Assembly: GCA_035286585.1 (NCBI GenBank)
Contig: DATEDC010000067.1
Span: forward strand, 1,272-65,271
Direction of reading: 5' to 3'
DNA from: Anaerolineales bacterium
GTDB lineage: Bacteria > Chloroflexota > Anaerolineae > Anaerolineales > UBA4823
DNA length: 64,000 nucleotides
A program made the translations under genes and the position numbers. The notes below the pieces were generated by a model that searched no databases, was not told the DNA's origin, and saw only the letters and a list, made by a program, of their open reading frames with translations. Positions within the stretch are counted from its first letter, which is position 1, and each line of letters opens with the position of its first letter. This document shows positions 8,841 to 52,201 of the stretch, piece by piece.

Positions 8841-8896
8841 GCATAGTGATGGCAGCCACAGATGCACACTGATCGGCACGGATTTTAGATAAGCGG

Positions 8897-10627: not shown

Positions 10628-10635
10628 GTGCCAAA

Positions 10636-16158: not shown

Positions 16159-16267
16159 ATTTCAGGGGCGAAGAGCCGTCACCTTACAATTTTATTTAGC
16201 GATATTTACATTATTTCAACGAAAAATGCGATATCATCAAAGATAACCTGGCGCGGGGTTGATCCAG

Positions 16268-17554
16268 ATGATAAAACGCCTATTCATGGTCTTCTTGGGG
16301 GTGCTCCTGGGCGGATGCACCGGGCTGGCGGCAAATCTCCAGCTCGTCTCCCTGTTCTTAATGCCGCCACTCCCCGCCCTCGCCACGCTTCCCCCGGCGC
16401 CCTCACCCACCAGCACGCCTGCCGTCCTGCACGCCCGCCTTCCGGATACGCCGTCCACACCTGAAGTTGAAATTCTGCCGCCAACAGCGACCAGCGCCCC
16501 ATCGCCCACTGCCTCGGCTACGCCCTACCCCTCCCCAACGCCTTACCTATACATTCAGGGACCTTTTTATTTCCCCGCGGATGTCAACCCGTTGACCGGT
16601 TTGCCGGCGGAAGACCCGGGTTTGCTCAGCCGCCGCCCGATCGCGATCAAAGTTACTAATTTTCCGAGGAGCGTGCGACCCCAATGGGGGCTATCCCTGG
16701 CTGACCACGTATATGAATACTACATCGGCGATGATATGTCTCGCTTCATCGGCATATTCTACTCTCAGGATGCCATCCGGGTCGGTCCTATCCGCTCAGC
16801 GCGCCTTTTCGACGGGCATATTGTGCGCCTCTATGAGGCAAATTTCGCCTTCGGTTGGGCGGACGATCCCATATTGGAGACGCTGCTCTTGCCCGATTTG
16901 CTGCCGCGACTGATCGTTGAGCACGCCGATAACTGCCCTCCACTGTGCCGCATTGGTCCAAAATATGCTTACAACAACCTGTACATCGACACCGGCCAGG
17001 TCGCGGCCTACCAGCAAGCGCGAGGGGCGAATAACGACCGCCAGGCGTTAGACGGCTTGCGCTTTGAAGCTGCGACGCCGAAAAGCGGCAACCCGGGTAA
17101 AAGCCTGTCGCTGGCTTATTCACTGGTTTCTTATCATCGTTGGGAGTACGATCCATATGCCGGGCGCTACCTGCGCTTTCAGGAAACCGGGGCGCGCCTG
17201 GGGGGCGAAGCCAGCTACGCTCCGCTCAGCGATGCGCTCACGGGCGCGCAGCTCGCTGCCGATAATATCATCATCCTGAAGATCCCCCACGAATATTTCT
17301 ACAAGTCCAGTTCCACGGAGATTATCGACCAGCCGATTGTAGGAGAGGGAAGCGGCTATGCCTTCCGGGACGGGCAGCTTTACCCTATCCAGTGGGCTCG
17401 CTCAGACGCTCAGGCGATGCTGAAATTCACCCTTCCCAACCAGCGCCCTTATCCTCTCAAGCCGGGGAATGTCTGGTTTGAGATCCTCGGCGAAAGCTCA
17501 ACCCTCAACCTGCTCCCGGATGGCTCCTGGGATTTCGAGTTCAGCATACCATGA
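16268..17554 (+). CDS. DUF3048 (YerB-like) lipoprotein, tandem paralogue
   Basis: Lipobox LLGGC. Same motif series as the upstream gene (NPLTGLPAEDP..RRPIAIKV..RPQWGLSLADHVYEYY..IGIFYS..VGPIRSAR). Confidence 0.75.
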   Translation: MIKRLFMVFLGVLLGGCTGLAANLQLVSLFLMPPLPALATLPPAPSPTSTPAVLHARLPDTPSTPEVEILPPTATSAPSPTASATPYPSPTPYLYIQGPFYFPADVNPLTGLPAEDPGLLSRRPIAIKVTNFPRSVRPQWGLSLADHVYEYYIGDDMSRFIGIFYSQDAIRVGPIRSARLFDGHIVRLYEANFAFGWADDPILETLLLPDLLPRLIVEHADNCPPLCRIGPKYAYNNLYIDTGQVAAYQQARGANNDRQALDGLRFEAATPKSGNPGKSLSLAYSLVSYHRWEYDPYAGRYLRFQETGARLGGEASYAPLSDALTGAQLAADNIIILKIPHEYFYKSSSTEIIDQPIVGEGSGYAFRDGQLYPIQWARSDAQAMLKFTLPNQRPYPLKPGNVWFEILGESSTLNLLPDGSWDFEFSIP

Positions 17555-31588: not shown

Positions 31589-31675
31589 CGGAGAGGGCGG
31601 GATTTGAACCCGCGGAGCCTTGCGGCTCACGCGCTCTCCAGGCGCGCGCGTTAGGCCAGACTACGCAACCTCTCC
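31589..31675 (-). tRNA. tRNA-Ser (anticodon GGA)
   Basis: The reverse complement folds as a cloverleaf: acceptor GGAGAGG/CCUCUCC, D arm GCGU/ACGC, anticodon stem CGCGC/GCGCG with loop CUGGAGA, 16-nt variable arm, T arm GCGGG-UUCAAAU-CCCGC, discriminator G. CCA is not encoded. Confidence 0.95.
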
Positions 31676-36539: not shown

Positions 36540-37094
36540 GTGATTGATCCGTCAGAATTTGACACTACACAATTGCTCAATAAAGCTCGGAACGGCGATA
36601 CAGAGGCGTATGGCGAGTTATACGAAAGATATGCGCCCAGAGTATTTCGATACCTATATGCTCATCTGAATAATCGCCAAGACGCAGAAGATCTGACGGA
36701 GGAAGTGTTTATACGAGTCTGGCGGTCGATCGCCAGCTACAAGGAACAGGGTGTGCCCTACCTGGCTTACCTGTTCAGAGTCGCTCGCAATGCACTGATC
36801 GACCACTACCGCAAAAACGCCAGCACGAAGCAGGAGGTCTCCATTGCGGATATCTCTCTGCAGGATCGAACACAGGGGCCGGGGGATGCAGTGGCCGCGA
36901 TGCTGGAACATGAACAACTGCGCCAAAAGATGGGGAAATTGCGCGAGGATTACCGTACAGTACTGATTCTTCGCTTTTTAAGTGAGCTGTCACCTGAGGA
37001 GACAGCGCAAGTGATGGGGCGCTCAGCCGGAGCAGTGCGAGTTTTGCAGCACCGGGCTTTAGCCGCACTGCGAGAATTGATGGGCGAGACATAG
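36540..37094 (+). CDS. ECF-family RNA polymerase sigma-70 factor
   Basis: Region 2 (YERYAPRVFRYLYAHL, DAEDLTEEVFIRVW) and region 4 HTH (LSPEETAQVMGRSAGAVRVLQHRAL). Confidence 0.9.
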   Translation: MIDPSEFDTTQLLNKARNGDTEAYGELYERYAPRVFRYLYAHLNNRQDAEDLTEEVFIRVWRSIASYKEQGVPYLAYLFRVARNALIDHYRKNASTKQEVSIADISLQDRTQGPGDAVAAMLEHEQLRQKMGKLREDYRTVLILRFLSELSPEETAQVMGRSAGAVRVLQHRALAALRELMGET

Positions 37095-37108
37095 AGGCAG
37101 AGTATTTC

Positions 37109-38413
37109 ATGGCAGCAACCCAGGAAGAATTCGCACGAATATTGGAGGTTTGCTTGGATCGTCTGCAGAGCGGGGAGGCAACGTTGGAGACAATTCTGGT
37201 TGAGCATCCGGACCTGGCGCCTGAGCTGCGCCCCTTGCTGGAGGTGGCTGCGTGGCTCCGGGCAAAGCAGACTGCGCTCGCGCCGCGCCCTGAATTTATC
37301 TCATCCTCCTGGGGTAACCTGGTCGCCCGGATGCGCCAGGAGCAAAGCGCCATGGATGGCGCACCCTCCCATATAACCTCTCGGGGCTCGTTTGAGCGCT
37401 TGCGGCGGTGGTTATTAGCTGTCAACCAACCTTTGAACAGAAGGCTGGCGCTCCAGTTTGTTATGGTCCTCGTTTTGCTGTTGGGGTTGATTGCTGGAGG
37501 TGCAGGCACTGCGGTTGCGTCTCAGCAGGCGTTGCCCGGAGAAGTGCTTTACCCTGTGAAAATCTCGCTCGAGCAGGTGGAGTTATTCCTCTCGGCGGAT
37601 GAGTCGAACGATATCCATTTACACTTACAATTTGCCCAACTGCGCAGCGCAGAAATGCAAAAGCTGGTGGATTTAAATCGCTATCTCTACCTGCGAGATA
37701 CGCTATCCAATTACCAATATCACGTCCATCAAGCTATCCGGCTGGTGGGTGTCCTTGCCAGCAAGGACCCTGAAAAAGCCATAGCGCTTGCCCCCGAAGT
37801 GCACCGTATTGTGGTCAGCCAGCCGGCAATTTTGAAAAATCTGGCTGAGTCCGTCCCGGAGCGCGTGTTTCCTGGTCTCACCGCAGCCGTGCAGGTTGCC
37901 GCCGGCTGGGTACAGACCATGGATAGCTTGCTGCAGGACCTGGGGATCGAGATAACCCCCACCCCAAAGGCGGAAGGCGCTGTCACCTCTACCCCAACCG
38001 GCACCACCACACCAACCTCTTTGCCCAGCGATAGCCCTACGCCGGGGTTTTCGCCCACTCTCACGGGCACTTCCACCCCGACGGGCACAGCGACTCAAAC
38101 GGGCACGGCAACCCCTGCCCTGACGCTCGCCAGGACGAATACAAGCACCCCGAGGTCGAGAGGTCCTCGTGTGACTCCAGGGGTCACACCGACCCCAACC
38201 GCTACGCTGGTTACGCCGACCAGCAAGCCCAGCAGAACCCCGACGCCCTCAGTCACCAGCCCTATTCCAACCGTAACGAGCACCCCGACCCCAACACCCA
38301 CGAGGACCTGGACTCCGACAGCCACACCGCTGCCCACCAGCACAGCCACGCCACCACCTACGAACACCCCTGCGCCGACCCCCACCCCTACCCTGCCGCC
38401 TTATCCCTATTAA
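37109..38413 (+). CDS. Membrane anti-sigma-like protein with extracytoplasmic DUF5667-type domain and Thr/Pro-rich tail
   Basis: Follows the sigma gene by 14 nt. N-terminal helical domain, one TM (LALQFVMVLVLLLGLIAGGAGTAVA), ALPGEVLYPVKISLEQVELF region, about 150-aa T/P-rich C-terminus. Confidence 0.7.
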   Translation: MAATQEEFARILEVCLDRLQSGEATLETILVEHPDLAPELRPLLEVAAWLRAKQTALAPRPEFISSSWGNLVARMRQEQSAMDGAPSHITSRGSFERLRRWLLAVNQPLNRRLALQFVMVLVLLLGLIAGGAGTAVASQQALPGEVLYPVKISLEQVELFLSADESNDIHLHLQFAQLRSAEMQKLVDLNRYLYLRDTLSNYQYHVHQAIRLVGVLASKDPEKAIALAPEVHRIVVSQPAILKNLAESVPERVFPGLTAAVQVAAGWVQTMDSLLQDLGIEITPTPKAEGAVTSTPTGTTTPTSLPSDSPTPGFSPTLTGTSTPTGTATQTGTATPALTLARTNTSTPRSRGPRVTPGVTPTPTATLVTPTSKPSRTPTPSVTSPIPTVTSTPTPTPTRTWTPTATPLPTSTATPPPTNTPAPTPTPTLPPYPY

Positions 38414-38597
38414 AAACCAAATGTCCGGGCAGGCATGCCGGCGGCACCCAGAGTGACCCGCTTACTGCTGCTTCCTCTCGGACCTGGCAGGATTCGCAGG
38501 TTTCTGCCGCGCCGGACCCACCCGGACGGTGGCGAGGATACCTCAGGGTAATATACTTGTCAATCCATTACCGCCAGCGGGCGGGCAAACCGCTTGT

Positions 38598-41303
<2,706 letters not shown>

Positions 41304-41362
41304 AACCTATCCTCATCATCCTTTAGTTCGAATAACAATAAACAGAGAAACTCAGTTTTAAT

Positions 41363-41391
41363 ATTATAGCCGCCTCGCGTGCTGTGATCAA
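41363..41391 (-). promoter_or_regulatory. Sigma70-type promoter for acnA, TTGATC-17 nt-TATAAT
   Basis: Minus strand TTGATC 41391-41386 and TATAAT 41368-41363, in an AT-rich spacer upstream of a GAGGAT RBS. Confidence 0.65.
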
Positions 41392-41405
41392 TACATGACA
41401 ATCTC

Positions 41406-42350
41406 TCACGAAGGTTGGCGCCGGACGATGGCGTCGCTCATCTTCACCACCCGGCTCATGAAAGGCAGGTCGTGGACGCGGACGATGTCTGCGCCCCGGG
41501 CGATCGCGATCGCCACCGCAGCCGCAGTGCCTTCCAGGCGTTGGTCGGGGGGGAGATCCAGCGTATAACCGATAAATGACTTGCGCGAGGGTCCCGCCAG
41601 CAGCGGGTAGCCCAGCGCCCGTATCTCCCCCAGGCGGTCGAGCAGCTCCAGGTTTTGCTCCACCGTTTTTCCGAAGCCAATCCCCGGGTCCAGGATGATC
41701 CTTTCATCGGGAATGCCGGCCTGCTGAGCGATAGAGACGCTTTCTAACAGTTCTCTCTGAATATCTGCGATCAGGTCCTCGTATGGCACGCCCACGTAGC
41801 GGCCCCCCAGCCGCTCCTTGATCTCAGCCGTCGCCCACGCGCTGCGGTTGTGCATCAGGATCACGGGCGCCTGGTATTCGGTTGCCACTCGGGCGATCTG
41901 CGGGTCAACCTTGAAGCCCCAGACGTCGTTCACCAGGTGCGCGCCGGCGCGCAGGGCGGCTTCGGCTACCGCAGCCTTGTACGTGTCGATCGAGATCAGG
42001 ATATCCAGCTCGGCAGCCAGCGTGCGGATTACCGGAAGAACCCGGGCCAGCTCCTCTGCCAGGTTTACCGGCAGCGCGCCCGGGCGCGTGCTCTCGCCGC
42101 CGATATCCAGGATATCCGCCCCTGCCTCGACGAAGCGATGCGCCTGTTCGATAGCGGAGATCAGCACCGGGTCCCGACTCTCGTCTCTACCCTTGGTTAA
42201 TTCGCCTTTGGGGTATTTGGCAGGGTCCAGCAGCCCGTCACCGGAGAAGCTGTCCGGGGTCAGGTTGAGAATGCCCATGATATAGGTGCGCCTGCCCCAT
42301 TCCAGAGCCCGCTTGCCAACCGACATAGCGGGAGATTTCAAGATGTGCAT
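41406..42350 (-). CDS. folP: Dihydropteroate synthase
   Basis: GILNLTPDSFSGDG, DIGGESTRPG, SIDTYK, NDVWG, GIGFGK motifs. Confidence 0.95.
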   Translation of the reverse strand: MHILKSPAMSVGKRALEWGRRTYIMGILNLTPDSFSGDGLLDPAKYPKGELTKGRDESRDPVLISAIEQAHRFVEAGADILDIGGESTRPGALPVNLAEELARVLPVIRTLAAELDILISIDTYKAAVAEAALRAGAHLVNDVWGFKVDPQIARVATEYQAPVILMHNRSAWATAEIKERLGGRYVGVPYEDLIADIQRELLESVSIAQQAGIPDERIILDPGIGFGKTVEQNLELLDRLGEIRALGYPLLAGPSRKSFIGYTLDLPPDQRLEGTAAAVAIAIARGADIVRVHDLPFMSRVVKMSDAIVRRQPS

Positions 42351-43020: not shown

Positions 43021-43053
43021 CTTTAAATAAGCAGAGCAGCCCTGAGGCTGCTC
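43021..43053 (-). terminator. Hairpin terminator after the Tad-like module
   Basis: Minus strand GAGCAGCC-UCAG-GGCUGCUC (43053-43034) followed by UGCUUAUUUAAAG, 47 nt after the TadG-like stop. Confidence 0.5.
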
Positions 43054-43099: not shown

Positions 43100-44464
43100 C
43101 TACTTGTATAATTCCAGGCTTGCCGGTGGTCGATAATTAATGGTGTTTTGGTAATTCACCACCACCTCGGTATTGCCATGAAGGAAAACCGTATCGCCGA
43201 TCAATTGGGCGTTGATCGTCTCCAAAGAGCCTCCGCCGGCTTCGATGGTACCCGAGGGAGCGTACACCGTTCCAATATAGTTGGAGCCAGAAGCGCCCAA
43301 GAGCACCACATCGTTCGTGTTGCCTTCGGCCAGGTAGATCAGCACGCCCGGGATGGCTGGCGGGCAGGTGTTGTTCTGGCAGGGGGCGATCTCCGGCAAC
43401 GGCGGCGCGACCAGATAAACTTCCACCGAGCCGCCCACGTAAAAATCTCCTTCGGTCAGGTAAATCGTCACGCCGCCCTCATCCTCCACCCGCACGGAAC
43501 CGCCGTTGATGGTGAAATCACGCGAGAGGCAATACAGCCCCGAGCGCAGCACCAGGTTGGTATTGGCGCTGTTGACCCGTATATAACCGTATCTCCCAGG
43601 GCTAATTGTGCCGCCGCCGCTGTGATCACCACGGTCGGACAGTGTTGAGCAACCCGAATCCGGCCCAGGGATGCGGTACGAAGCGGTGGGCAGCGGAGTG
43701 GTGCCCACCACCGGCGTCGGCGGGTCTACGCTGGGAGAACCGTTGGTGGTATAGCACCCTTCGCCAACACACCCAAGAGCCCCGCCATTTATGTCCACAT
43801 TGACCGAGCCACCCACCACGGCGCAGGCGTTGGACAGGATGCCACCTCCGTTGACCTGGATCGTGCTGTTGCCATCTATGTGAACGCCGCCCGTATTGCT
43901 GTTCGGGCAATCGGTGCGCAAAGCCACCACGGCGTTGCCAAAAGCGAGCGGCGAGCGCGGCCGCACGCGGGCAACAGCCGTCACCGTGTTACGCAGTGGT
44001 CCCTTATATACAAAATGGGCAAAGGTGGTGTTTGTATCAGTGGTGATGGTCGTGGTGATATCCAGATATTTATCGATCCACAGGCCGGTATTCTGTTGCC
44101 CGCATCTGAAAGTCGCACCATTCTGATCGCTGAGATCGTCATCGATGGCATAATCATTGCTCCCGGCGCGGCTGATGGCAGCATTCAAACCCGCCTGGCC
44201 TGCATTGACGATCTGGGTGTAGATCGGGTCGCCTGAGTTGGTGCAGGCCCAGTTCTCATAATCCACGTAATGGTTTTCCAGGTATAAAGCCGCCGTGGCT
44301 GCGCCCCCCAGCGAGGAGGCATCAGACGCATTTTGAGCGTGGCGGCGGTTTGAATAAACCATGCCGCCATCGACAGCCAGGGCGGTGAAACCCAATAAAA
44401 CGACAAACCCAAGCACCAATAACACCAGTGCCTGGCCCTTCTCTTGTGATAGTTGCTTATTCAT
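43100..44464 (-). CDS. TadG-like pseudopilin/pilus-assembly protein with beta-helix-like C-terminal region
   Basis: AAAGGAG RBS before the ATG at 44464. N-terminus EKGQALVLLVLGFVVLLGFTALAVDGGMVY..R..QNASDASSLGGA matches the Tad N-terminal (TadG) signature. C-terminus is rich in G-x-V/I repeats (GTVYAPSGTIEAGGGS). Confidence 0.7.
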   Translation of the reverse strand: MNKQLSQEKGQALVLLVLGFVVLLGFTALAVDGGMVYSNRRHAQNASDASSLGGAATAALYLENHYVDYENWACTNSGDPIYTQIVNAGQAGLNAAISRAGSNDYAIDDDLSDQNGATFRCGQQNTGLWIDKYLDITTTITTDTNTTFAHFVYKGPLRNTVTAVARVRPRSPLAFGNAVVALRTDCPNSNTGGVHIDGNSTIQVNGGGILSNACAVVGGSVNVDINGGALGCVGEGCYTTNGSPSVDPPTPVVGTTPLPTASYRIPGPDSGCSTLSDRGDHSGGGTISPGRYGYIRVNSANTNLVLRSGLYCLSRDFTINGGSVRVEDEGGVTIYLTEGDFYVGGSVEVYLVAPPLPEIAPCQNNTCPPAIPGVLIYLAEGNTNDVVLLGASGSNYIGTVYAPSGTIEAGGGSLETINAQLIGDTVFLHGNTEVVVNYQNTINYRPPASLELYK

Positions 44465-44492
44465 CCCCACATCTCCTTTTGTATCAACGATT

Positions 44493-44939
44493 CTATGTAC
44501 AGGCCGGAGCCAATACCGTATCCGTAACTGTGGCAGTGATATCCACCGCCTGCCTGCCCAGGATCGCTCCCAGATATGGCATGGTGATCGGAAAATTTTG
44601 ATAAGTAACCCGAACTGTAATGGCTTCACCGGTGCACGGTGAGCCGTCATGGGTTACATTGATGACAATCCTGCCGGAGCTCACCAGATCATTGAGAATA
44701 TTCGAGTTGTTACTAATGCGAGTCTGGATGCCAGCCGCATCCGTGGGATTATACGAGCCGTACAAAGCCCCTTCCTGAGCAGAATCGCGCAGCGACATGT
44801 AGGTAAACAACGCCCTGCCCACGTCCGCCAACCCGGCCAGCAAGACCAGGAGGACCACCAGGCTGATACTGAATTCCAGCAGGCTTTGACCCTGTTCCGA
44901 GTTATTTCTATTTTTTTCAGCCAAATTATTCATATGCAC
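44493..44939 (-). CDS. TadE/TadF-like pseudopilin
   Basis: 148 aa; SEQGQSLLEFSISLVVLLVLLAGLADVG is a prepilin-like TadE motif with Glu at +5 after the Gly. Confidence 0.75.
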   Translation of the reverse strand: MHMNNLAEKNRNNSEQGQSLLEFSISLVVLLVLLAGLADVGRALFTYMSLRDSAQEGALYGSYNPTDAAGIQTRISNNSNILNDLVSSGRIVINVTHDGSPCTGEAITVRVTYQNFPITMPYLGAILGRQAVDITATVTDTVLAPACT

Positions 44940-44961: not shown

Positions 44962-47364
44962 TCAGCGCCACCCAAAAGCCACGTAAATATCCCAAACACC
45001 CTCATAGGGAGCGTTTCCCTGACCGGAGAAGCTGGTTTGGACCAGCGGGTTGGCTGAGGCGCCGGTAGCAAAGATCATGGGCGGGGTCAGCAGGCTGCCG
45101 TCTCCGCCAAGCGCCGCATAATACAAGAAGTCATTCCACTCTACATCCAGCCAGGTCAGGATTGCGTAGCCCCCTTCCGCATAGGTCACTGAGACGTAAT
45201 CCGGCTTGCGCGTTCCCGCCAGGGGCAGGTCGGATGGAGCGCGCAAGAGAGCGCTGCCGTCGGGATCCAGCACAGCATAAGCAATCCTTTCCGTTGCCGG
45301 ATTAGTCCAAGCCAAAACAAGATTGCCATTGGCGACCCGCACTCCATCGCTACGCCAGCCGCTGCTGCCAGGGATGGTCGCAGGGGATGCGGTCACGTTT
45401 CCTGAGCTGTTAACCATGGCGTAGGCGATCGAGTAAGTCTCAGAGATCTGGCTGTACACTGTGTAAGCAAACAAGGCGCCGGCGTTAGCATTCACCAGGT
45501 CCGGGTCAAGCAAAAGGGTGCTGCCAGCGACGCTCTGGGTGAGCATTTGCGGTCCGGCGGTGACCTGGGCGCCGGTTGTGGTATAGCTGGCGTAATAAAT
45601 CGTATTCACCTCGTTATCGCCTGCCTGGAGGCGGTTATCCAGCCAGCCTAAAAGGAAACGGTTGTCATCCGTAGCGATAAGGCGCGGCGAGGAGTACAAC
45701 GGGATGTCGTAATCGCCTGTGCCGCGCCACTGGCTGTTGTTGGTCAGGTTCACCGGCCCATAAATTTGATCCCCCTGGGCGTTCAAAACAGCAAACCAAA
45801 CATTCGAATTCCGGCGAATGTCGGGCAGTGTGGATAAATCAAGCTGATACTGCACCCAGAGCAAAGCGAGCTTACCATCCCCAGCAACTGAAACCGCCGG
45901 GTAGCGCGCGTTCACCAAAAGGGTCGGCGTGGCCAGATTCTGATTTTGAGTGAGCGCAGTAGTTGGCCGGAGGACAAATCCGAATTTGTTTAAGACCTGG
46001 TACTCGATATTGGAGTAATTCACGCCGGAGCTGAAACCATTTTTCTCCCAGGCGTATAGATAGCTGCCACCCAGCCTGCCATCCAGCGAGAGCGTGTTGC
46101 CGGTGAAATAGGTAGCGACATGCTTATTACGAGAGTTCAGCGCCCAGACCTGTCTCAGGTGCATGCCCGACTGGCTGTCAGCGTATGCCTGGGCAAAGGG
46201 CGCCGGAATCGCGACCTGTGCGGTGGTGTTCGCCGATTTCGTGTCGTCCAACGAAGAAGTCACGAACAGGGTGATCACGGTGTAATCGGTCACCTGAGCT
46301 GCCTCTGGCGCGACAACCCTGAAGGCGATCTCCAGCGTGGCGCCCTGGGCGAGCAAACCGCTATCGACCATGCCATCCAGGTTCGTATCCACGAGCGCAG
46401 CGCTGTTATCCGCTCGATAGAAAGAGACTGTCCAACCCGAGGCGCTCGAAACTGCGGTCAGATTGAGGGTGTCGGGACCCAACTCGCCAATATTGCTCAC
46501 CGAAGCCTGGAATTGGGTGTAGATGTTGTAGCTGAGAGCGCTTTGATAGAGCGGAGCTACTTTGGCGTTCGCCGCAGGGGTGGGACGGAAAAAGTGAAGA
46601 GCCAGGCCTGAGGTCAATCCCGGGGCGTTATACAGATAGAGCAAGCCATTCACACCATCCTGGTCCTCTATCCCCACCGTAGCATTGACCAGGTCCCCGT
46701 TGAGATCTTGGTACTGGAAAAGAATATCGCCATTCTCGAAAAGAACGACCTCGAAAGTAAGCAGGTCAGCGCTACCGAACTTCACCACCTGATGCCATTC
46801 GATTACAAAGCGCCGGGGAGAGGCGCTGTCGAACCAGTAATAAACCTGTCCAGCGCCTAGCTGCAGATCGTCCCAAAATGGGGCAACCAGATTGTTCGGA
46901 ACCGAATCCAGCGGGAGAAACTGGTTGGAGAAGGCGCTGCTGCCGGTTTCGAAGGTAAGCATGCCATTGGTGCTGATAAAAAGCTGGTTATAGGTGTTTT
47001 CGTAGAATTTAAAGTCGAAACCGATATCAATCGGGGCAGTGAAATCGTCGTCGGGATCAGAAAACAGCGCCTGAGTGCCTTTGGAGGTAAGATCTTCCCA
47101 GGCAAAGGCCACACCGTCATCCAGGGTATAGCCAAAAGGGTCAGAGCTGGAAGCCGCGGCGCTCGAAACACCACCCTGAGCCAGCTGCTTGTGCCAGTCA
47201 TCGTAGGCTTGCTCCGATCCGGCCTCAGGTTTTTTCTCCGGAGGAGGCGGCTCCTCCCCGCCCAATGCCGAAGAATATGCCTGAGCTGGAACGCCTGTGC
47301 TGCCGTCCAGGACGAGCAAGATCAGAAATATGACCAGGCAGATTCGATAAAATCCTGACCTCAC
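44962..47364 (-). CDS. Secreted 800-aa protein: signal peptide, NIDO-like region, beta-sandwich, beta-propeller-like C-terminal half
   Basis: GTG start with a GGAG RBS. Signal peptide ...LVLDGSTGVPAQA. ISTNGMLTF...VAPFWDDL...FVIEWHQV...TFEVVLFENGDILFQY block. Six to seven repeats of a hydrophobic-x-W blade-like pattern in the C-terminal 400 aa. Confidence 0.7.
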   Translation of the reverse strand: MRSGFYRICLVIFLILLVLDGSTGVPAQAYSSALGGEEPPPPEKKPEAGSEQAYDDWHKQLAQGGVSSAAASSSDPFGYTLDDGVAFAWEDLTSKGTQALFSDPDDDFTAPIDIGFDFKFYENTYNQLFISTNGMLTFETGSSAFSNQFLPLDSVPNNLVAPFWDDLQLGAGQVYYWFDSASPRRFVIEWHQVVKFGSADLLTFEVVLFENGDILFQYQDLNGDLVNATVGIEDQDGVNGLLYLYNAPGLTSGLALHFFRPTPAANAKVAPLYQSALSYNIYTQFQASVSNIGELGPDTLNLTAVSSASGWTVSFYRADNSAALVDTNLDGMVDSGLLAQGATLEIAFRVVAPEAAQVTDYTVITLFVTSSLDDTKSANTTAQVAIPAPFAQAYADSQSGMHLRQVWALNSRNKHVATYFTGNTLSLDGRLGGSYLYAWEKNGFSSGVNYSNIEYQVLNKFGFVLRPTTALTQNQNLATPTLLVNARYPAVSVAGDGKLALLWVQYQLDLSTLPDIRRNSNVWFAVLNAQGDQIYGPVNLTNNSQWRGTGDYDIPLYSSPRLIATDDNRFLLGWLDNRLQAGDNEVNTIYYASYTTTGAQVTAGPQMLTQSVAGSTLLLDPDLVNANAGALFAYTVYSQISETYSIAYAMVNSSGNVTASPATIPGSSGWRSDGVRVANGNLVLAWTNPATERIAYAVLDPDGSALLRAPSDLPLAGTRKPDYVSVTYAEGGYAILTWLDVEWNDFLYYAALGGDGSLLTPPMIFATGASANPLVQTSFSGQGNAPYEGVWDIYVAFGWR

Positions 47365-47406: not shown

Positions 47407-50043
47407 TTAATTCCCAATCCGCTTGCTGAACGGCAGGCAGTTGGCAAAACGGGCGCTCACCACAATCTCCTGCCCGGCGGACATATTCGGCTGCCGATCG
47501 AACAGGAATGTCATCTGGCGGGCGCTGAACACACCGCTCCACAATGGGCTGGGGTTGACTACATCCAGGTAGCCCAGGCTGGCAGGGTAATAAAAGCTGT
47601 TGCCGATCGGGTTATTGCCGAACACGATGCTTTCCAGGGCTGCATTGTTAGTAGTCGGCCAAAACACCGTCACTTCAAGCAAGTTGGTCGTGTTGGGATC
47701 CGTATTCTGCAGCTCCCAGATCAACTTTTTGTTGTCGTTGCCAGTGCCAAAATATGGATCGGAGGCTGCTGTCGGACATATCCAGGCGGTAATGGTTGCG
47801 ATGTGGCGATCGTAGGTAGAGCTGCGGGTAGCGTTCACCGGCGTGCCCATGAAAACATCTACGGTCTCATTCCCCTCACCCAGCTCTTCATCGTGAATGA
47901 CCTGGATAGTGATCGTAGCCTCGGTGCTGCCGGCGGGAATAAACACCGTGTCGCTTGGCGAGATAGTGTAATCAGCGCCTGGCGTGGCTGAACCGCCCAC
48001 CGAGAACGGCACGGTAACATCCCGACCGGACACGGGGCTCAGCCGGACGGTGATGAGCATCTGCCCAACGTCCTCCATCCCGGATTGGGAGGGGGAGGTG
48101 AAATACACCAGCGGAGGCGCTTCGTCATCCAAAATTGTAATCGTGTGCACGCTGGGAGAACCGAGGGTGACGTTGCTGGGCGGGCCCATGGTGAGAATAA
48201 CGGTTTCATCGTCCTCGTCCAGGGCATCGTTGACTACAATGACAGATATACTGCCCGTGGCGCTGCCCGCCGGGATCGAAATTTGCCCAGAGGTGACAGT
48301 ATAGTCCGCCCCATTTGCAGCCGTGCCGCTCAGGCTGAAAGGCACGACCACATTTTGGTAGTAAGCCGAGCTGAGCTGTGCGACCACGCTCAGTGTGCCA
48401 ATGCCTTCAGACTCAGCCTGACTGACCCGGGCGAACGAAACCGTTGGCGGCACAGGCGAGGCAGTGACCGTAAGGGTATGCTCACCCGGCGCTCCCAGGG
48501 TGGCGTTCAGCGGGGCGCCCATCGTTAAGATAATGGTTTCTTCCGTTTCATAATTGTCACCATTGTTTATGATGGTCACCGCTATGCTGGCGGTAGTCTG
48601 TCCCGCCGGAATCACCACTAAACCTGGCGGGAGGCTGTAATCCACTCCCCCCTCTGCGGTGCCCCCAAGCGTGTAAGGAACCTCTACCTGCTTGCCAGAA
48701 GGGGCGCTCAGGCTCACCTCTATATACACCGTACCGGCATTTTCGGGCGCCTCAGAGGCCTCCCAGGTGAAATAAACTAACGGCGGGGCGTCGTTATCGA
48801 TGATCGTGGCTGTATGTACATTGGCAGCCCCCTTAAAGGCGTTCACCGGCTCGCCCATCACAAGCATAAAATTTTCATCCTCTTCGTCGATCGCATCAAA
48901 GCTCGTGGTAAATAAAATCAGCTTGCTGGTTTCACCCGGCGCAAAAGTTACCGGGCTGGAGGTGTTGAGCACATAATCCCCACCCAGGGTCGCGGTGCTG
49001 CTAATCACGTCCGCGCTGAATGGAACCGTTACCGTTCTGCCTGAGGGGTTGCTGAGATCCACCCTGACAAAGGCGCTGACCCCATCCACGCCATCGTCCT
49101 CTTGCAAATTCTGGGTCTCCGGAATGAAATCTGCGGTGGGAGGGTCGTCATCATCGGCGATAGTGATCAAATGGGTATCCGGTGAACCGATGTTGCCGTT
49201 ATCGACATTGACAATTCGCAGCAGCACGGTTTCATCGTCTTCATCGGTCAGGTCCGGGACGATGGTGACAGACACGGCGGCGCTCACATCTCCAGCCAGG
49301 ATTACAACCGGGCTGGCGGTATCCAGGCTGAAATCGCCGCCGGCTGCTGCGGAGCTGGCGCCGGCATCCAGGTTAAAATGGACGGTCACATTGCTGGCCG
49401 TCGGTCCGCTCAGGCGGAGCTGAACGTTCACCACGCGCGGCGTGCCCGGGTCACCTGGGTCGCCTTCATCGACGGTTTGCTCTGCGGGGGAAAAAGATAC
49501 GCTCACGCTGCCTGAGGGGGCAGGCGGCGTGCCCTGAATAGAAATATCTTTCAGTATCGTGCGCGCCGAGGTGGACATAATTGGGAAGGAGGGGATGCGC
49601 AGTAACGGGAGCAAGGGTCGATACAGCGCTAAAACAGACACCACCACCCGGTGACCAAGCTCCACATTGGCAGGACCGTAGCCGTTCGCCGGGCAGTTCC
49701 CAAAGGCATGAGCGGGATCGCCATCATCGTAATTGATGCTGATGTCCCCATTTTCGATCCCTACCAGCGTGCCCATCCTGCGGGCGGCAGCGCGCATCCC
49801 ATCACAGTCGCGATAATGCGGGATGTAATTGCCCACATTGCCGGCAGCGGACCCGTAGCGGGCAGCTTCACGGCTGGAGGTGAAAACCATGCTGTAGATG
49901 AAGAGCAGGCGACCGAACTCGATCAGGGCAAACATCACTAAGAGCAGCAATGGAAGCACCAGGGCAAACTCAACCAGACCCTGGGCTCGCTCGTGTTTAT
50001 CCAACCTTCTCATGAGAGCACCTGTTTTAGCCAATATATTCAT
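47407..50043 (-). CDS. TadE-like N-terminal domain fused to five Calx-beta repeats and a unique about 125-aa C-terminal domain
   Basis: HERAQGLVEFALVLPLLLLVMFALIEFG TadE motif (an alternative ATG at 50013 gives a 12-aa leader). Five segments of about 110 aa each carry the Calx-beta pattern (V.F....V.E..G...V.V.LS......V.VP....G.TA..G.DY......V.I.AG........V...D...E..E...L.M). Confidence 0.8.
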   Translation of the reverse strand: MNILAKTGALMRRLDKHERAQGLVEFALVLPLLLLVMFALIEFGRLLFIYSMVFTSSREAARYGSAAGNVGNYIPHYRDCDGMRAAARRMGTLVGIENGDISINYDDGDPAHAFGNCPANGYGPANVELGHRVVVSVLALYRPLLPLLRIPSFPIMSTSARTILKDISIQGTPPAPSGSVSVSFSPAEQTVDEGDPGDPGTPRVVNVQLRLSGPTASNVTVHFNLDAGASSAAAGGDFSLDTASPVVILAGDVSAAVSVTIVPDLTDEDDETVLLRIVNVDNGNIGSPDTHLITIADDDDPPTADFIPETQNLQEDDGVDGVSAFVRVDLSNPSGRTVTVPFSADVISSTATLGGDYVLNTSSPVTFAPGETSKLILFTTSFDAIDEEDENFMLVMGEPVNAFKGAANVHTATIIDNDAPPLVYFTWEASEAPENAGTVYIEVSLSAPSGKQVEVPYTLGGTAEGGVDYSLPPGLVVIPAGQTTASIAVTIINNGDNYETEETIILTMGAPLNATLGAPGEHTLTVTASPVPPTVSFARVSQAESEGIGTLSVVAQLSSAYYQNVVVPFSLSGTAANGADYTVTSGQISIPAGSATGSISVIVVNDALDEDDETVILTMGPPSNVTLGSPSVHTITILDDEAPPLVYFTSPSQSGMEDVGQMLITVRLSPVSGRDVTVPFSVGGSATPGADYTISPSDTVFIPAGSTEATITIQVIHDEELGEGNETVDVFMGTPVNATRSSTYDRHIATITAWICPTAASDPYFGTGNDNKKLIWELQNTDPNTTNLLEVTVFWPTTNNAALESIVFGNNPIGNSFYYPASLGYLDVVNPSPLWSGVFSARQMTFLFDRQPNMSAGQEIVVSARFANCLPFSKRIGN

Positions 50044-50463
50044 TTATATATGCCTGAATGACTAATTTTTCACATTTTTATGCCACTGAAAAGCAAAAAC
50101 CGCCTCCGACCTGTATCGATTATAACGACGCTCATGCAACACTGCTACACAAAAATTGTAAGCCTATCAAAATTGTATTGTGAGTGATTTTAGCCAAAAC
50201 TATTGTAATCTCTGGCTGCTTTTCAGCCCTCCCCGATCGGGAGCGCCGGTAACATTCCCTCTCAGCCGCTCACAGTTCTTCAGGAATCGTCGCCGCGTTC
50301 ACGGCAATTGCGACAGGCCCCACTCAGAACATCAAAATGCAAACAAAGATGCAAATATTCACGCGCATCCGTGTTTAATTGATTATAGAGCAAATTTTTC
50401 GTTTGGGTGTTTAAGGGTTGATTAACCGGCTACCCATTTTTCCTAGTATGTCCGGGGGCCCTA

Positions 50464-51621
50464 CTAGGGACGGCGAGTCGGGCTGGGGAGAGGCCGCCGC
50501 GTCTTGGTGGGCTTGGGCTCTTCCTCGGTAGGCTGCTCCGTGGGCTGCTCCGTGGGCTGCGGCGTGCTGACTGCCTGCCGGGTAGCTGAGGGAACGGGGG
50601 TAGAAGATGGCAGCCAGGTGGGACTTGGCGTCAGTGTATAGGTTCCAGTGGGCGTCAAGGTGGGCGTCAAAGTAGGCGTACCGGTAAGCGTGCTCGTGGA
50701 GGTGGCGGTTGAGGTTTCCGTTGGTGTGGGAGTAGCAATAGCTTCTACCTGAGATGGCTCCTGCGTAGGCGAGCCAGTGGGAACCCCAATCGAATCCAGA
50801 ACCCCCTGCACCGAGGAGCTCCCACCTTGGGCGACCGTCACCGCCCTGGTAATCTCGCTCTTTAGCTGGGTTGGGATCAGCTCGGCCAGAACCTGGAGGC
50901 TGGCGACATGGCTGGCAAGAGCGCTCTGAAATACTACTGCCAGCTCACTGGCCTGGGCTGCATTGCGTCTCGATAGTTGATCGAGCAGTGTCACTGCCCG
51001 AACAATGTGGTTTTCAAAGCGATTCACTGTTGCGCCGATAAATTCATAGCGCCCCTCCAGGAACAGGCCTTGAATCTCAACTATACGCCGGGCGGAGAAC
51101 TCGATGTGCAGGCGAATATCACCCGCCATGCCCGGACTGAAAAACAGCTCCACCCCCTCGAGCGTTGTTTTTAGCGGGTACAACTGGTCGCCGGGTAAAG
51201 CATCCTGGGCGGCAAAAGCAACCCCTGTTCCACCAGTAAACATGGTGAGGAGAAGAACAAACACCAGCGCGATCTGCAGGGCAAAGCGCCGGCGCGCCGG
51301 GGCGCCTGACGGCACGATCTGGCTCCAGATATGCTTTAGCCAGCCTATCACCTGCTGGCTGACTGGCAGCGCTGAGGCTGCCTGCTCCTGCTGCAAACGA
51401 TACACCAGGCGCTGGCGAGAAGCGCTCACAAACCCGGGACGCGACTCCAGATCGCTGCGCCTGGCAGCCAACCACAGCGCGGCCTCCAGGCGAGGGCGCA
51501 GCTCGTCAGCCGCTTCCGGATAGCGAGCCAGAGCTTCTTCAATGGAAACATCCCCGCTCTGGACCAGTTCCAGGCAGGATTGCAAGACAAGCTCCAGCTC
51601 ATTCAGGCGATCAGACATCAA
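50464..51621 (-). CDS. Membrane anti-sigma-like protein with DUF5667-type domain and Thr/Pro-rich tail (paralogue of 37109-38413)
   Basis: Same architecture and collinear similarity (LESCLELVQSG..., ALPGDQLYPLKTTLEGVELFF). Overlaps the sigma gene by 4 nt. Confidence 0.7.
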   Translation of the reverse strand: MMSDRLNELELVLQSCLELVQSGDVSIEEALARYPEAADELRPRLEAALWLAARRSDLESRPGFVSASRQRLVYRLQQEQAASALPVSQQVIGWLKHIWSQIVPSGAPARRRFALQIALVFVLLLTMFTGGTGVAFAAQDALPGDQLYPLKTTLEGVELFFSPGMAGDIRLHIEFSARRIVEIQGLFLEGRYEFIGATVNRFENHIVRAVTLLDQLSRRNAAQASELAVVFQSALASHVASLQVLAELIPTQLKSEITRAVTVAQGGSSSVQGVLDSIGVPTGSPTQEPSQVEAIATPTPTETSTATSTSTLTGTPTLTPTLTPTGTYTLTPSPTWLPSSTPVPSATRQAVSTPQPTEQPTEQPTEEEPKPTKTRRPLPSPTRRP

Positions 51622-52184
51622 TCAAACCCTACCGCGCCCTCCATCAAGCTTCGCAGAGCAATCAGAGCCCTGTGCTGCAGAACGCGTACAGCTCCCGAGC
51701 TACGGCCCATCGCTTGCGCCGTCTCCTCTGGAGATAATTCACCAAGATATCGTAACACCAAAACCGTGCGATAGTCCTCACGCAACTTCTCCAATGTCTG
51801 GCGCAGTTTCTGGTGTTCCAGGTCAATCATCACGGCTTCCACCGGTCCTGGACTGTGATCCTTGAGAGGCAGGTCCTCCAAGGCCACATCCCTTTTTAAA
51901 CCACCTGACCGGCGATAATGATCGATCAGGGCGTTTCGCGCAACGCGAAACAGAAACGCAAGAAACGGAACGCCCTGTTCGCGATAACCAGATAAGGATT
52001 TCCACACCCGCAAGAAGACATCTTCGGTTAGATCCTCGGCATCCAGGCGATCATCCAGGTGAGCATATAAAAAGCGAAATACTCTCCCTGCATAGCGCTC
52101 GTATAATTCGCCGAACGCCTCAGCGTCGCCGCTTTGCGCGGCTATCAGCAGTTGAATGTCATCAACTCGTTGCCAGTCTGACAT
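51618..52184 (-). CDS. ECF-family RNA polymerase sigma-70 factor (paralogue of 36540-37094)
   Basis: YERYAGRVFRFLYAHL, DAEDLTEDVFLRVW, LSPEETAQAMGRSSGAVRVLQHRAL. Roughly two-thirds identical to the other ECF sigma by eye. Confidence 0.9.
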   Translation of the reverse strand: MSDWQRVDDIQLLIAAQSGDAEAFGELYERYAGRVFRFLYAHLDDRLDAEDLTEDVFLRVWKSLSGYREQGVPFLAFLFRVARNALIDHYRRSGGLKRDVALEDLPLKDHSPGPVEAVMIDLEHQKLRQTLEKLREDYRTVLVLRYLGELSPEETAQAMGRSSGAVRVLQHRALIALRSLMEGAVGFD

Positions 52185-52201
52185 CAAATGCTATCCCATA
52201 A

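What the first reader, a model, noticed from the sequence alone, without database searches (positions are those of the whole stretch)
47407..50043. Giant pseudopilin: TadE-like domain fused to five Calx-beta repeats and an unassigned C-terminal domain
TadE/TadF pseudopilins are normally about 150-200 aa. Here residues 1 to about 170 form a complete TadE-like domain. About 550 aa follow (roughly nt 47840-49515), organised as five segments of about 110 aa with the Calx-beta signature, including acidic DxDE-type clusters (DLTDEDDETV, AIDEEDENF, DALDEDDETV, HDEELGEGNETV). A unique Cys-containing tail of about 125 aa ends the protein (WICPTAASDPYFGTG...ARFANCLPFSKRIGN). If it is incorporated like a minor pilin, it would place a long Ca-binding stalk plus an unknown head at a filament tip. 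The residue at the expected -1 cleavage position is Ala (ERA/QGLVEF) rather than the usual Gly, so processing is uncertain. The five repeats are diverged at nucleotide level, so this is not a recent expansion.
Basis: partly seen in the sequence, partly recalled or inferred. Interest (0 to 1): 0.75.

Follow-up and report, generated by a model that had tools for sequence, protein, structure and literature searches.

The report
Giant modular Tad pseudopilin of Anaerolineae
This is a real, conserved 878-residue protein of Anaerolineae (Chloroflexota) that joins a pilus-subunit anchor to a rod of five calcium-exchanger-type (Calx-beta) domains and an unnamed beta-sandwich head, most likely to hold that head out from a Tad pilus tip; it is a new variation on the known 'modular pilin' theme, not a new kind of machine.

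Summary
Pfam finds TadE (aa 21-62) and five Calx-beta domains. A 126-aa tail matches no Pfam family.

The fusion is not an artefact. 111 of the 120 best database relatives share the architecture, and 16 species-level Chloroflexota genomes carry it.

Ala at the predicted -1 cleavage position is the family norm (69 Ala, 31 Gly, 1 Val), so it does not argue against processing.

The gene sits in a conserved cassette: ECF sigma, anti-sigma, giant TadE, an optional 800-aa secreted protein, a small TadE, and a TadG-like protein. In one relative the cassette lies directly downstream of rcpC-tadZABC.

Across genomes the first TadE of the cassette ranges from about 166 to over 1100 aa. In 39 of the 80 loci it ends in the same Cys-bracketed head, and that head sits within about 20 residues of the C-terminus in all but two. 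The spacer varies: poly-Pro, a PT linker, or 2, 5 or 6 Calx-beta domains.

The head models confidently (pLDDT 94) as a beta-sandwich with no close solved relative. It defines a large unannotated family (1566 representative clusters).

Best reading: a modular Tad minor pseudopilin of a tip or priming complex. Function is untested. It is a new variant of a known kind.

The parts
51618..52187 (-). ECF sigma factor; the closest NCBIfam model is the BldN family, below its cut-off
   Evidence: Pfam Sigma70_r2/r4/ECF; NCBIfam. An ECF sigma lies upstream on the same strand in 9 of 15 Calx-type loci that have enough flank.
50464..51621 (-). Anti-sigma factor (DUF5667) with a transmembrane segment and a Pro/Thr-rich C-terminus; its start overlaps the sigma gene's stop
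   Evidence: Pfam PF18915; translation; synteny.
50044..50463 (-). 420-nt upstream non-coding region with blocks conserved in six orthologous loci. These include a palindrome GATGCA-N10-TGCATC (about 50348-50369), a block holding TATAAT (50118-50123), and an AGGTG Shine-Dalgarno-like motif before Met11.
   Evidence: Alignment A4; sequence; one weak sigma-70-like hit at 50184-50155.
49984..50043 (-). Leader peptide of the class III (prepilin-type) signal, aa 1-20. The likely true start is Met11 at 50013. The predicted cleavage is ERA/QGLVEF after Ala20.
   Evidence: Family -1 residue: 69 Ala, 31 Gly, 1 Val. Start-site argument.
49549..49983 (-). TadE-type pseudopilin module, aa 21 to about 165: alpha1 helix 20-65 with Glu at +5, helix 80-94, four beta-strands, and invariant Cys80/Cys117
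   Evidence: Pfam TadE; AF2 model pLDDT 88.5; Cys conservation 110/110.
49150..49506 (-). Calx-beta domain 1 (aa 180-298), acidic motif DLTDEDDETV
48787..49149 (-). Calx-beta domain 2 (aa 299-419), acidic motif AIDEEDENF. This motif aligns with the DDDIFEEDKNF segment of the sodium/calcium exchanger NCX1, which I recall as part of its Ca2+ site.
48451..48786 (-). Calx-beta domain 3 (aa 420-531), the weakest acidic motif (NNGDNYETEETI)
48118..48450 (-). Calx-beta domain 4 (aa 532-642), acidic motif DALDEDDETV
47788..48117 (-). Calx-beta domain 5 (aa 643-752), motif HDEELGEGNETV
47410..47787 (-). C-terminal head (aa 753-878): a nine-strand beta-sandwich bracketed by invariant Cys756 and Cys869. 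No Pfam family matches and there is no close solved structure.
   Evidence: AF2 pLDDT 94.4; Foldseek best TM 0.39-0.45; Pfam none; 1566 representative clusters.
44962..47364 (-). 800-aa protein with a Sec-type signal peptide and a short NIDO-like match; the rest is unassigned. It is an optional member of the cassette.
   Evidence: Present in 5 of 14 Calx-type loci and 14 of 53 loci overall.
44493..44939 (-). Small TadE-family pseudopilin (148 aa) with the canonical site EQG/QSLLEF. It is hidden under the over-extended start of the next ORF.
   Evidence: Translation. The orthologues carry PF07811.
43100..44464 (-). TadG-like pseudopilin (454 aa from MNKQLSQEKG/QALVLL; no Glu at +5), Pfam Tad PF13400 plus DUF7305
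43034..43053 (.). GC-rich hairpin flagged as terminator-like on both strands; probable operon end
   Evidence: a consensus match only.

Best explanation
The gene encodes a modular minor pseudopilin of the Tad (type IVc) pilus system of an Anaerolineales bacterium.

Proposed mechanism:
1. The adjacent ECF sigma/anti-sigma pair switches on a four-gene operon: giant TadE, an 800-aa secreted protein, a small TadE and a TadG-like protein (inferred from conserved synteny).
2. Each pseudopilin inserts into the membrane through its class III signal. A TadV-type prepilin peptidase encoded elsewhere removes the leader, cutting the giant protein after Ala20 (inferred; the site has the right layout, and its -1 residue is Ala or Gly in 100 of 101 relatives).
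3. The three pseudopilins bundle their alpha1 helices into a priming or tip complex on the TadB/C platform. This is by analogy with the KilL/M/N 'Tip' complexes of Myxococcus and with the GspIJK tip complex of the type II secretion system.
4. Polymerisation of the major pilin Flp pushes the complex outward.
5. The five Calx-beta domains, stiffened by Ca2+ bound at their conserved acidic motifs, form a rod of roughly 20 nm (my estimate from the size of Calx-beta domains).
6. The rod holds a disulfide-bracketed beta-sandwich head away from the tip, where the head binds an unknown ligand (adhesion, filament-filament contact or surface motility).

Shown here: the architecture, the family-wide conservation, the operon context, the pilin-like topology, and the 'conserved head, variable spacer' pattern. 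Inferred: cleavage, incorporation into a pilus, Ca2+ binding, and the ligand.
For: - Domain content: TadE plus five Calx-beta hits above the Pfam cut-offs.
- Fusion conserved: 111 of the 120 top relatives carry both domains at about 850 aa.
- Signal layout: a polar leader, then A/G, then Q-G-[MLI]-[VLI]-E-F and a hydrophobic helix. The -1 residue is 69 Ala, 31 Gly, 1 Val. Prepilin peptidases are described as cutting after Gly or Ala (PMC3244431).
- Fold: the AF2 model of aa 1-182 (pLDDT 88.5) has a 46-residue alpha1 helix plus a 4-stranded sheet. This is the universal pilin topology described in PMC4471445.
- Neighbours: a small TadE plus a TadG-like gene lie downstream in 13 of 14 Calx-type loci and 41 of 53 loci overall. 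This matches the 'tadEEG' arrangement reported for Chloroflexales (PMC7332563).
- Link to the machinery: L018 reads rcpC-tadZ-tadA-tadB-tadC, two unrelated genes, ECF sigma, anti-sigma, TadE(2 Calx + head), TadE, TadG.
- Spacer/head pattern: the first TadE of the cassette ranges from a plain 166 aa, through TadE-polyPro-head (298 aa), TadE-PT-linker-head and 2 Calx + head, to 5-6 Calx + head. Where the head is present it lies within about 20 residues of the C-terminus in all but two loci.
- Cysteines: all four are invariant in 110 of 110 members.
- Ca2+ motifs: the acidic motifs are conserved and align with the NCX1 DDDIFEEDKNF segment.
- Head on other pilins: the head domain also sits on proteins with classical type IV pilin N-termini, one of which JGI annotates as PilV.
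- Precedent: stand-alone clusters of TadE/F/G-like minor pilins that form pilus tips exposing variable domains are reported in PMC12075869.
Against: - No Tad ATPase, platform, Flp pilin or prepilin peptidase gene lies in the 64-kb window. A CpaF-like ATPase lies within 10 kb in only 3 of the 82 fetched loci, which represent 80 distinct places.
- I did not show that this genome has a Tad machinery at all.
- In the Myxococcus and proteobacterial tip models the distal variable domain is on the TadG/KilN-like subunit, not on a TadE.
- Foldseek and a sequence profile find no solved relative of the N-terminal module, so 'pilin fold' rests on predicted topology alone.
- In the systems studied, bacterial leaders are said to end invariably in Gly (PMC4471445).
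- No heterotrimer prediction could be run.
- There is no experimental evidence for cleavage, Ca2+ binding or localisation.
Confidence: 0.55

Rival explanations
1. An envelope-spanning display protein. The TadE-type N-terminus, cleaved or not, keeps the protein in the cytoplasmic membrane or in a very short pseudopilus. The spacer (PT linker, or 2, 5 or 6 Calx-beta domains) is matched to the thickness of the multilayered Chloroflexota envelope, so the head reaches the cell surface without a long pilus.
For: - Spacer length varies widely while the head stays constant.
- Chloroflexota are described as monoderm with thick multilayered envelopes.
- The cassette usually lies far from the Tad machinery genes.
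- The same head domain occurs on the extracellular parts of Ser/Thr kinases and on subtilases, which are not pilus proteins.
Against: - The conserved partnership with a second TadE and a TadG-like pseudopilin, and the adjacency to rcpC-tadZABC in L018, point to the Tad assembly pathway.
- The Ala/Gly-only pattern at -1 (100 of 101) and the invariant Glu at +5 are features selected for prepilin processing and assembly, not for a simple membrane anchor.
Confidence: 0.25
2. A Calx-beta adhesin that has merely borrowed a TadE-like hydrophobic N-terminus as a signal-anchor and acts independently of any type IV filament machinery, for example in Ca2+-dependent cell-cell cohesion within filaments.
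For: - The bulk of the protein is made of adhesin-type modules.
- NCBI names one relative simply 'Calx-beta domain-containing protein'.
- No Tad machinery lies in the window.
Against: - The N-terminal 165 residues are the most conserved part of the protein (column identity 0.6-0.8 against 0.4-0.6 elsewhere). That part includes a folded pilin-like globular domain with an invariant Cys pair.
- Synteny with TadE and TadG is conserved.
Confidence: 0.1
3. The giant TadE is itself the repeating (major) subunit of a thick 'bottle-brush' fibre rather than a tip subunit.
For: Some monoderm tad loci lack flp, and TadE-like proteins have been suggested as their structural subunits (PMC3244431). No flp gene was seen near the cassette.
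Against: - A 90-kDa subunit with a rod of roughly 20 nm on every protomer would be sterically very demanding.
- Chloroflexales genomes do encode flp.
- The cassette layout (two TadE plus a TadG-like gene) is that of minor pilins.
Confidence: 0.07
4. A sequencing or assembly artefact, or a mis-called fusion of a TadE gene with a Calx-beta gene.
For: None found.
Against: - The reading frame is uninterrupted.
- The same full-length architecture occurs in 111 of the 120 best relatives from independent assemblies (NCBI, ENA, JGI, Logan). These include closed chromosomes such as CP070639.1, CP070764.1 and CP070785.1.
Confidence: 0.01

Closest known systems
Modular type IV pilins (Streptococcus sanguinis PilB and PilC; ETEC CofB) - Raynaud et al. 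2021, PMC8179133
   Same: A small N-terminal pilin module is joined by a linker to bulky functional modules, which are proposed to be exposed at the pilus tip. CofB in particular has a pilin module, a beta-repeat domain and a terminal beta-sandwich.
   Different: Those proteins are type IVa/IVb pilins carrying the IPR012902 motif, and the published survey searched only for that motif, which this TadE-type protein is not expected to carry, so it would have been missed. Here the extension is a five-domain Calx-beta rod plus an unannotated head. No paper in the library holds both 'TadE' and 'Calx-beta'.
Myxococcus xanthus Kil (Tad) 'Tip' complexes KilL/KilM/KilN, and TadE/F/G tips of proteobacteria - Herrou et al. 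2025, PMC12075869
   Same: Stand-alone clusters of three TadE/TadF/TadG-like minor pilins lie away from the machinery genes. They are predicted to form a helix-bundle tip exposing a variable distal domain with many disulfides.
   Different: There the distal domain belongs to the TadG/KilN-like subunit and is compact. Here it is on a TadE-like subunit and sits on a long repeat rod. An ECF sigma/anti-sigma pair, and sometimes an 800-aa secreted protein, are part of the cassette. Formation of a heterotrimer was not tested here.
The tadE-tadE-tadG ('tadEEG') genes of Chloroflexales - Gaisin et al. 2020, PMC7332563
   Same: Same phylum and same gene order: two TadE genes followed by a TadG-like gene, in genomes whose only pilus system is Tad. 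In 11 of the 80 surveyed loci the first TadE is a plain protein of about 150-177 aa.
   Different: In this lineage the first TadE has gained the C-terminal head with spacers of very different lengths.
Calx-beta domains of the Na+/Ca2+ exchanger NCX1 (CBD1/CBD2; e.g. PDB 3us9)
   Same: These are the closest solved sequences to the repeat region (E 5e-13). The acidic motif aligns with DDDIFEEDKNF.
   Different: In NCX1 the domains are cytoplasmic Ca2+ sensors. Here five tandem copies sit in an extracellular structural context. Ca2+ binding is not shown.

Membership tests
TadE/TadF-type pseudopilins (Pfam PF07811; substrates of TadV) | The N-terminal TadE motif scores above the Pfam gathering threshold | tested here: met
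   42.5 bits against a cut-off of 22.9, aa 21-62.
TadE/TadF-type pseudopilins (Pfam PF07811; substrates of TadV) | Class III signal peptide: short polar leader, small residue at -1, Glu at +5, then about 20 hydrophobic residues (G/XXXXEF) | tested here: met
   MRRLDKHERA/QGLVEFALVLPLLLLVMFALI. The -1 residue is Ala here and 69 Ala, 31 Gly, 1 Val in the family. Glu25 and Phe26 are invariant. The deviation from the textbook Gly is noted.
TadE/TadF-type pseudopilins (Pfam PF07811; substrates of TadV) | Pilin 'lollipop' fold: long alpha1 helix packed on a 4-stranded antiparallel sheet | tested here: inconclusive
   The AF2 topology fits (H20-65, four strands, pLDDT 88.5). Foldseek against the PDB gives no match (best E 0.2) and a sequence profile against the PDB gives none. 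I could not check whether any TadE structure has been solved.
TadE/TadF-type pseudopilins (Pfam PF07811; substrates of TadV) | Genetic linkage to other Tad components | tested here: met
   A small TadE plus a TadG-like gene lie downstream in the window and in 41 of 53 loci. rcpC-tadZABC is adjacent in L018. No machinery genes lie in the window itself.
TadE/TadF-type pseudopilins (Pfam PF07811; substrates of TadV) | Leader removed by the TadV prepilin peptidase; required for pilus biogenesis | not testable with these tools
   Needs N-terminal proteomics and genetics.
Calx-beta domain (PF03160) | Domain profile match | tested here: met
   Five stretches, E 8.5e-47. NCX1 CBDs are the nearest solved sequences.
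Calx-beta domain (PF03160) | Acidic Ca2+-coordinating motifs present | tested here: met
   D264/E268/E271, D383/E387/E390, D606/E610/E613 and D718/E723/E726 are at least 90% conserved, and the motif aligns with the NCX1 segment. Repeat 3 is degenerate. Actual Ca2+ binding was not tested.
Modular pilins (sensu Raynaud et al. 2021) | An N-terminal pilin module fused through a linker to non-pilin modules | tested here: met
   The linker at 166-179 has low pLDDT.
Modular pilins (sensu Raynaud et al. 2021) | IPR012902-type N-terminal methylation motif (the criterion used in the published survey) | not tested
   No InterPro scan was available. By eye, the N-terminus follows the TadE pattern (A/QGLVEF), not the G/FTLxE pattern. 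This fits the concept but would fall outside the surveyed set.
Tad 'Tip' minor-pilin complexes (Herrou et al. 2025) | A cluster of three TadE/F/G-like minor pilins separate from the machinery genes | tested here: met
Tad 'Tip' minor-pilin complexes (Herrou et al. 2025) | Predicted heterotrimer with an alpha1N helix bundle | not testable with these tools
   The structure tool predicts single chains only.
Tad 'Tip' minor-pilin complexes (Herrou et al. 2025) | The distal variable domain is carried by the TadG/KilN-like backbone subunit | tested here: not met
   The large extension is on the TadE-like protein. The TadG-like protein (454 aa) has only DUF7305.

The most novel reading that the evidence does not exclude
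Anaerolineae may use a 'pilin anchor - exchangeable spacer - constant head' system. In it, the reach of one recognition head from the Tad tip or the membrane is tuned over evolution by swapping spacers: nothing, poly-Pro, a PT linker, or 2, 5 or 6 Ca2+-stiffened Calx-beta domains. The head belongs to a large, so far unnamed beta-sandwich family that is also used as a stalk repeat on other TadE proteins and on type IVa-like pilins. The whole cassette is deployed on demand by a dedicated ECF sigma/anti-sigma pair. This would be a regulated, length-tunable pilus tip, or an envelope-spanning pseudopilus, with no described counterpart.
Probability: 0.25. Interest if true: 0.7.

Novelty: new variant of a known kind. 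Interest (0 to 1): 0.55.

Why it matters
The minor pilins TadE, TadF and TadG are the least understood parts of a very widespread pilus system. The first functional model for them, interchangeable tips, dates from 2025 and comes from predatory proteobacteria.

This family extends the modular-pilin idea in three ways: to TadE-type subunits, to the little-studied and mostly uncultured Anaerolineae, and to an extreme geometry (a five-domain rod).

It also offers a natural series of spacer lengths behind one conserved head. That series is a ready-made test of whether reach matters for pilus-tip function.

Finally, it flags a large domain family (1566 representative clusters) that has no Pfam model and no close solved structure.

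Tried and rejected
- The plus-strand translation of the given coordinates is full of stops; the gene is on the minus strand.
- Foldseek of the N-terminal module against the PDB gave nothing usable (best E 0.2). The PDB sequence profile gave no hits.
- Foldseek of the head gave only generic Ig-like sandwiches at TM 0.39-0.45: the copper chaperone PCuAC, the archaellum proteins FlaF and FlaG, and archaeal pilins and archaellins. One head-type copy in P0122 gives a sub-threshold Arch_flagellin hit (28.3 against 29.5 bits). I regard a link to archaellin-type domains as an unproven lead.
- A profile-profile comparison of the head with the TadE module shows no relationship (probability 0.1%).
- BLASTP of the giant N-terminus against the small TadE matches only the first 65 residues.
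- A Pfam scan of all 38 head sequences at E up to 10 gave no shared family.
- NCBIfam has no specific model for any of the four cassette proteins.
- The 800-aa neighbour has no PDB relative and no Pfam match beyond a short NIDO hit.
- Rfam finds no RNA family in the conserved upstream region.
- The promoter and terminator scans were no better than shuffled sequence. I could not identify an ECF-type promoter with confidence.
- The cluster look-up gave no taxonomy for the other head-bearing proteins.
- Assembly artefact was rejected (see the rival explanations).
Full report
**1. Observation**

The coordinates hold a single 878-codon ORF, but it lies on the minus strand (47407-50043). Pfam finds TadE (PF07811, aa 21-62, 42.5 bits against a 22.9 cut-off). 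It also finds Calx-beta (PF03160) in five stretches (E 8.5e-47). Nothing significant covers aa 753-878.

The five repeats share 25-41% amino-acid identity and 52-57% nucleotide identity, and Tandem Repeats Finder reports nothing.

A conserved ACAGGTG motif lies immediately before Met11, in register with the annotated starts of four of the five orthologues. The real start is thus probably the ATG at 50013. This changes only the leader length, from 20 to 10 residues.

**2. Not an artefact: a conserved family**

A search of 5.8 billion proteins returned 723 hits. Of the best 120, 111 have both TadE and Calx-beta, are about 830-1000 aa long, and cover 85-100% of the query at 34-98% identity. They come from independent NCBI, ENA, JGI and Logan assemblies.

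The named members are Anaerolineales MAGs. A scan of one genome per GTDB species found 207 relatives. Among the best 80 loci nearly all are Chloroflexota: Anaerolineales, Anaerolinea, Leptolinea, Ornatilinea, Brevefilum and Thermoflexales. A few other labels are probably mis-binned contigs.

**3. The N-terminal module**

In 101 members with an intact N-terminus the motif is X/Q-[GST]-[MLI]-[VLI]-E-F. The residue X is Ala in 69, Gly in 31 and Val in 1. Ala is therefore the family norm and alternates almost only with Gly. That is the pattern expected for the -1 site of a prepilin peptidase. Such peptidases have been described as cutting after Gly or Ala (PMC3244431), although bacterial leaders are usually said to end in Gly (PMC4471445). 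The small TadE in the same operon has the canonical EQG/QSLLEF.

An AlphaFold2 model of aa 1-182, built with a 32-sequence alignment, has pLDDT 88.5. It shows a 46-residue alpha1 helix (20-65), a second helix (80-94) and four beta-strands ending at residue 162. A low-confidence linker follows. This is the 'lollipop' pilin topology described in PMC4471445.

No solved structure matches it by fold or by sequence. Cys80 and Cys117 are invariant.

**4. The rod**

The nearest solved sequences to aa 180-752 are the Ca2+-binding domains of the exchanger NCX1 (3us9, E 5e-13). FDAIDEEDENF aligns with the NCX1 segment DDDIFEEDKNF.

The D..E..E motifs of repeats 1, 2, 4 and 5 are at least 90% conserved in the family, as are the acidic residues that end repeats 2 and 4. 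Ca2+ binding is thus plausible but untested.

Most members have five repeats. In the species survey one locus has six (L014) and two have two (L018, L021). The roughly 980-1000-aa relatives probably also carry a sixth (inferred from length only).

**5. The head**

With a 38-sequence alignment, aa 745-878 model at pLDDT 94.4 and pTM 0.86 as a nine-strand all-beta domain. Cys756 and Cys869, which bracket the domain, are invariant in 110 of 110 members.

Foldseek against the PDB gives only generic Ig-like sandwiches at TM 0.39-0.45. No Pfam family is shared by the 38 heads, even at E up to 10.

A profile of the head searched against 1.84 billion representative proteins finds 1566 clusters at E up to 1e-3 and 519 at E up to 1e-10. 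The domain occurs:
- singly at the C-terminus of this family;
- in 2-5 tandem copies in other TadE-fronted proteins (P0121, P0122, P0123, P0162, P0170, P0184);
- on proteins with classical type IV pilin N-termini (P0246; and P0232, which JGI calls PilV);
- on subtilases, Ser/Thr kinases and DUF5666 proteins.

It is therefore a mobile, extracellular and so far unnamed module.

**6. Genomic context**

The window has no Tad ATPase, platform, Flp or peptidase gene. The gene does, however, sit in a conserved cassette, all on the minus strand:
- ECF sigma, 51618-52187;
- DUF5667 anti-sigma, 50464-51621;
- a 420-nt conserved non-coding region;
- the giant TadE;
- an 800-aa secreted protein with a NIDO-like match, 44962-47364;
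- a small TadE, 44493-44939, which the longest-ORF list hides;
- a TadG-like protein, 43100-44464.

Seven loci fetched through exact protein look-ups show the same order. In the species survey, 13 of 14 Calx-type loci with enough flank have the small TadE plus the TadG-like gene downstream, as do 41 of 53 loci overall. The 800-aa gene is optional (5 of 14). An ECF sigma lies upstream in 9 of 15.

A CpaF-type Walker motif lies within 10 kb in only three loci. One of them, L018, reads rcpC-tadZ-tadA-tadB-tadC, two unrelated genes, ECF sigma, anti-sigma, TadE(2 Calx + head), TadE, TadG. This ties the family to the Tad machinery. It also matches the 'rcpC-tadZABC, tadEEG, flp' inventory reported for Chloroflexales, whose only pilus system is Tad (PMC7332563).

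**7. The most informative result: one head, interchangeable spacers**

The ORF homologous to the first TadE was extracted from each of the 80 species loci. The forms are:
- plain proteins of about 150-177 aa: 11 loci, e.g. L028;
- TadE, poly-Pro, head: L027, 298 aa;
- TadE, a PT linker of about 90-100 residues, head: L019, L034;
- TadE, other modules, head: e.g. L039, L042, L043, L056, about 820-875 aa;
- TadE, 2 Calx-beta, head: L018, L021;
- TadE, 5 or 6 Calx-beta, head: 15 loci, plus L010, whose ORF stops before a head.

A head is detected in 39 of the 80 loci. It lies within about 20 residues of the C-terminus in all but two of them: L032, whose ORF runs off the contig, and L075.

A constant distal head behind a variable spacer is what one expects if the head is the working part and the Calx-beta array is a reach-setting rod.

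**8. Mechanism and comparison with what is known**

The closest concepts are two.
- Modular pilins (PMC8179133): a pilin module carries a grafted functional module at the pilus tip. The published survey used only the IPR012902 motif, which a TadE-type N-terminus is not expected to match, so it would have missed these proteins.
- The Tad 'Tip' complexes of Myxococcus and other proteobacteria (PMC12075869): stand-alone clusters of TadE/F/G-like minor pilins are predicted to form a helix-bundle tip exposing a variable, disulfide-rich distal domain.

The present cassette fits both, with four differences. The extension is on a TadE rather than on the TadG/KilN-like subunit. It is a long repeat rod plus a new head. 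A sigma/anti-sigma pair belongs to the cassette. A large secreted protein is sometimes inserted.

The TadG-like protein lacks Glu at +5. By analogy with GspK (my recollection, not tested here), that would place it at the very top of the complex, with the two TadE proteins beneath it.

My best explanation (confidence 0.55) is a Tad minor pseudopilin of a tip or priming complex that displays the head on a Ca2+-stiffened rod of roughly 20 nm. The main rival (0.25) is an envelope-spanning display protein or short pseudopilus whose spacer matches the thick Chloroflexota envelope.

No paper in the library mentions TadE together with Calx-beta. Database names are generic: 'Calx-beta domain-containing protein', 'pilus assembly protein', 'Flp pilus assembly protein TadG'.

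**9. Verdict**

The finding is real and correctly read, and the processing doubt is largely resolved. It is a new variant of a known kind. It would be moderately surprising to a type IV pilus specialist. Its useful by-products are a large unannotated head-domain family and a natural series of spacer lengths. Function remains entirely inferred. Interest 0.55.

Noticed in passing
window 44962-47364 (-): An 800-aa protein with a Sec-type signal peptide is encoded inside the pseudopilin operon. Only a short NIDO-like match is found (aa 126-183); the remaining 600 or so residues have no Pfam or PDB relative. It is present in some orthologous cassettes and absent from others. Its position recalls PilY1, a large non-pilin adhesin encoded among minor pilins, but no similarity to PilY1 was shown.
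   Followed up: partly
window 50044-50463 (-); alignment A4: The non-coding region upstream of the giant gene has long blocks that are almost invariant across six loci whose proteins are only 75-89% identical. The blocks include a palindrome GATGCA-N10-TGCATC (about 50348-50369), repeated ACAAT motifs and a TATAAT (50118-50123). They are likely operator or promoter elements, or a 5' leader. No Rfam family matches, and no clear ECF-type promoter was identified.
   Followed up: partly
window 44493-44939 (-) versus 43100-44650 (-): The longest-ORF call for the TadG-like gene (516 aa) runs 62 codons too far upstream and overlaps the real 148-aa small TadE gene. A naive ORF list therefore hides the small TadE.
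   Followed up: yes
window 36540-38413 (+) and 38424-42350 (-): A second ECF sigma/DUF5667 pair follows the TadG-like gene directly in close relatives (L083-L086, L001). Here it is separated from the TadG-like gene by folP, aconitase and the SRP RNA, and it lies on the opposite strand. This indicates a local inversion or rearrangement in this genome.
   Followed up: partly
proteins P0014, P0036, P0057, P0060, P0069, P0087, P0101, P0104, P0109, P0111: Ten database relatives are annotated as starting at MVEFAL, which is position +3 of the predicted mature protein. These look like gene-caller start errors that delete the leader and the cleavage site.
   Followed up: no
proteins P0121, P0122, P0123, P0162, P0170, P0184: Other large TadE-fronted proteins build their whole extension from 2-5 tandem copies of the same head-type domain instead of Calx-beta. 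One copy in P0122 gives a sub-threshold match to Pfam Arch_flagellin. The Foldseek hits for the head include FlaF, FlaG and archaeal pilins. This is a possible distant link to archaellin-type sandwiches, but it is unproven.
   Followed up: partly
window 6914-7023 (+): A TPP riboswitch (68.8 bits) lies upstream of a thiamine pyrophosphokinase gene and a binding-protein-dependent ABC transporter (7062-11694). This is an ordinary arrangement.
   Followed up: no
window 67-5535 (+): A 1822-aa histidine kinase with six GAF domains plus PAS, HisKA and HATPase domains; the ORF may start before the window.
   Followed up: no
window 38424-38523 (-) and 31589-31675 (-): A small SRP RNA and a tRNA gene.
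   Followed up: no
window 14809-16083 and 16259-17554 (+): Two adjacent paralogous DUF3048 proteins.
   Followed up: no
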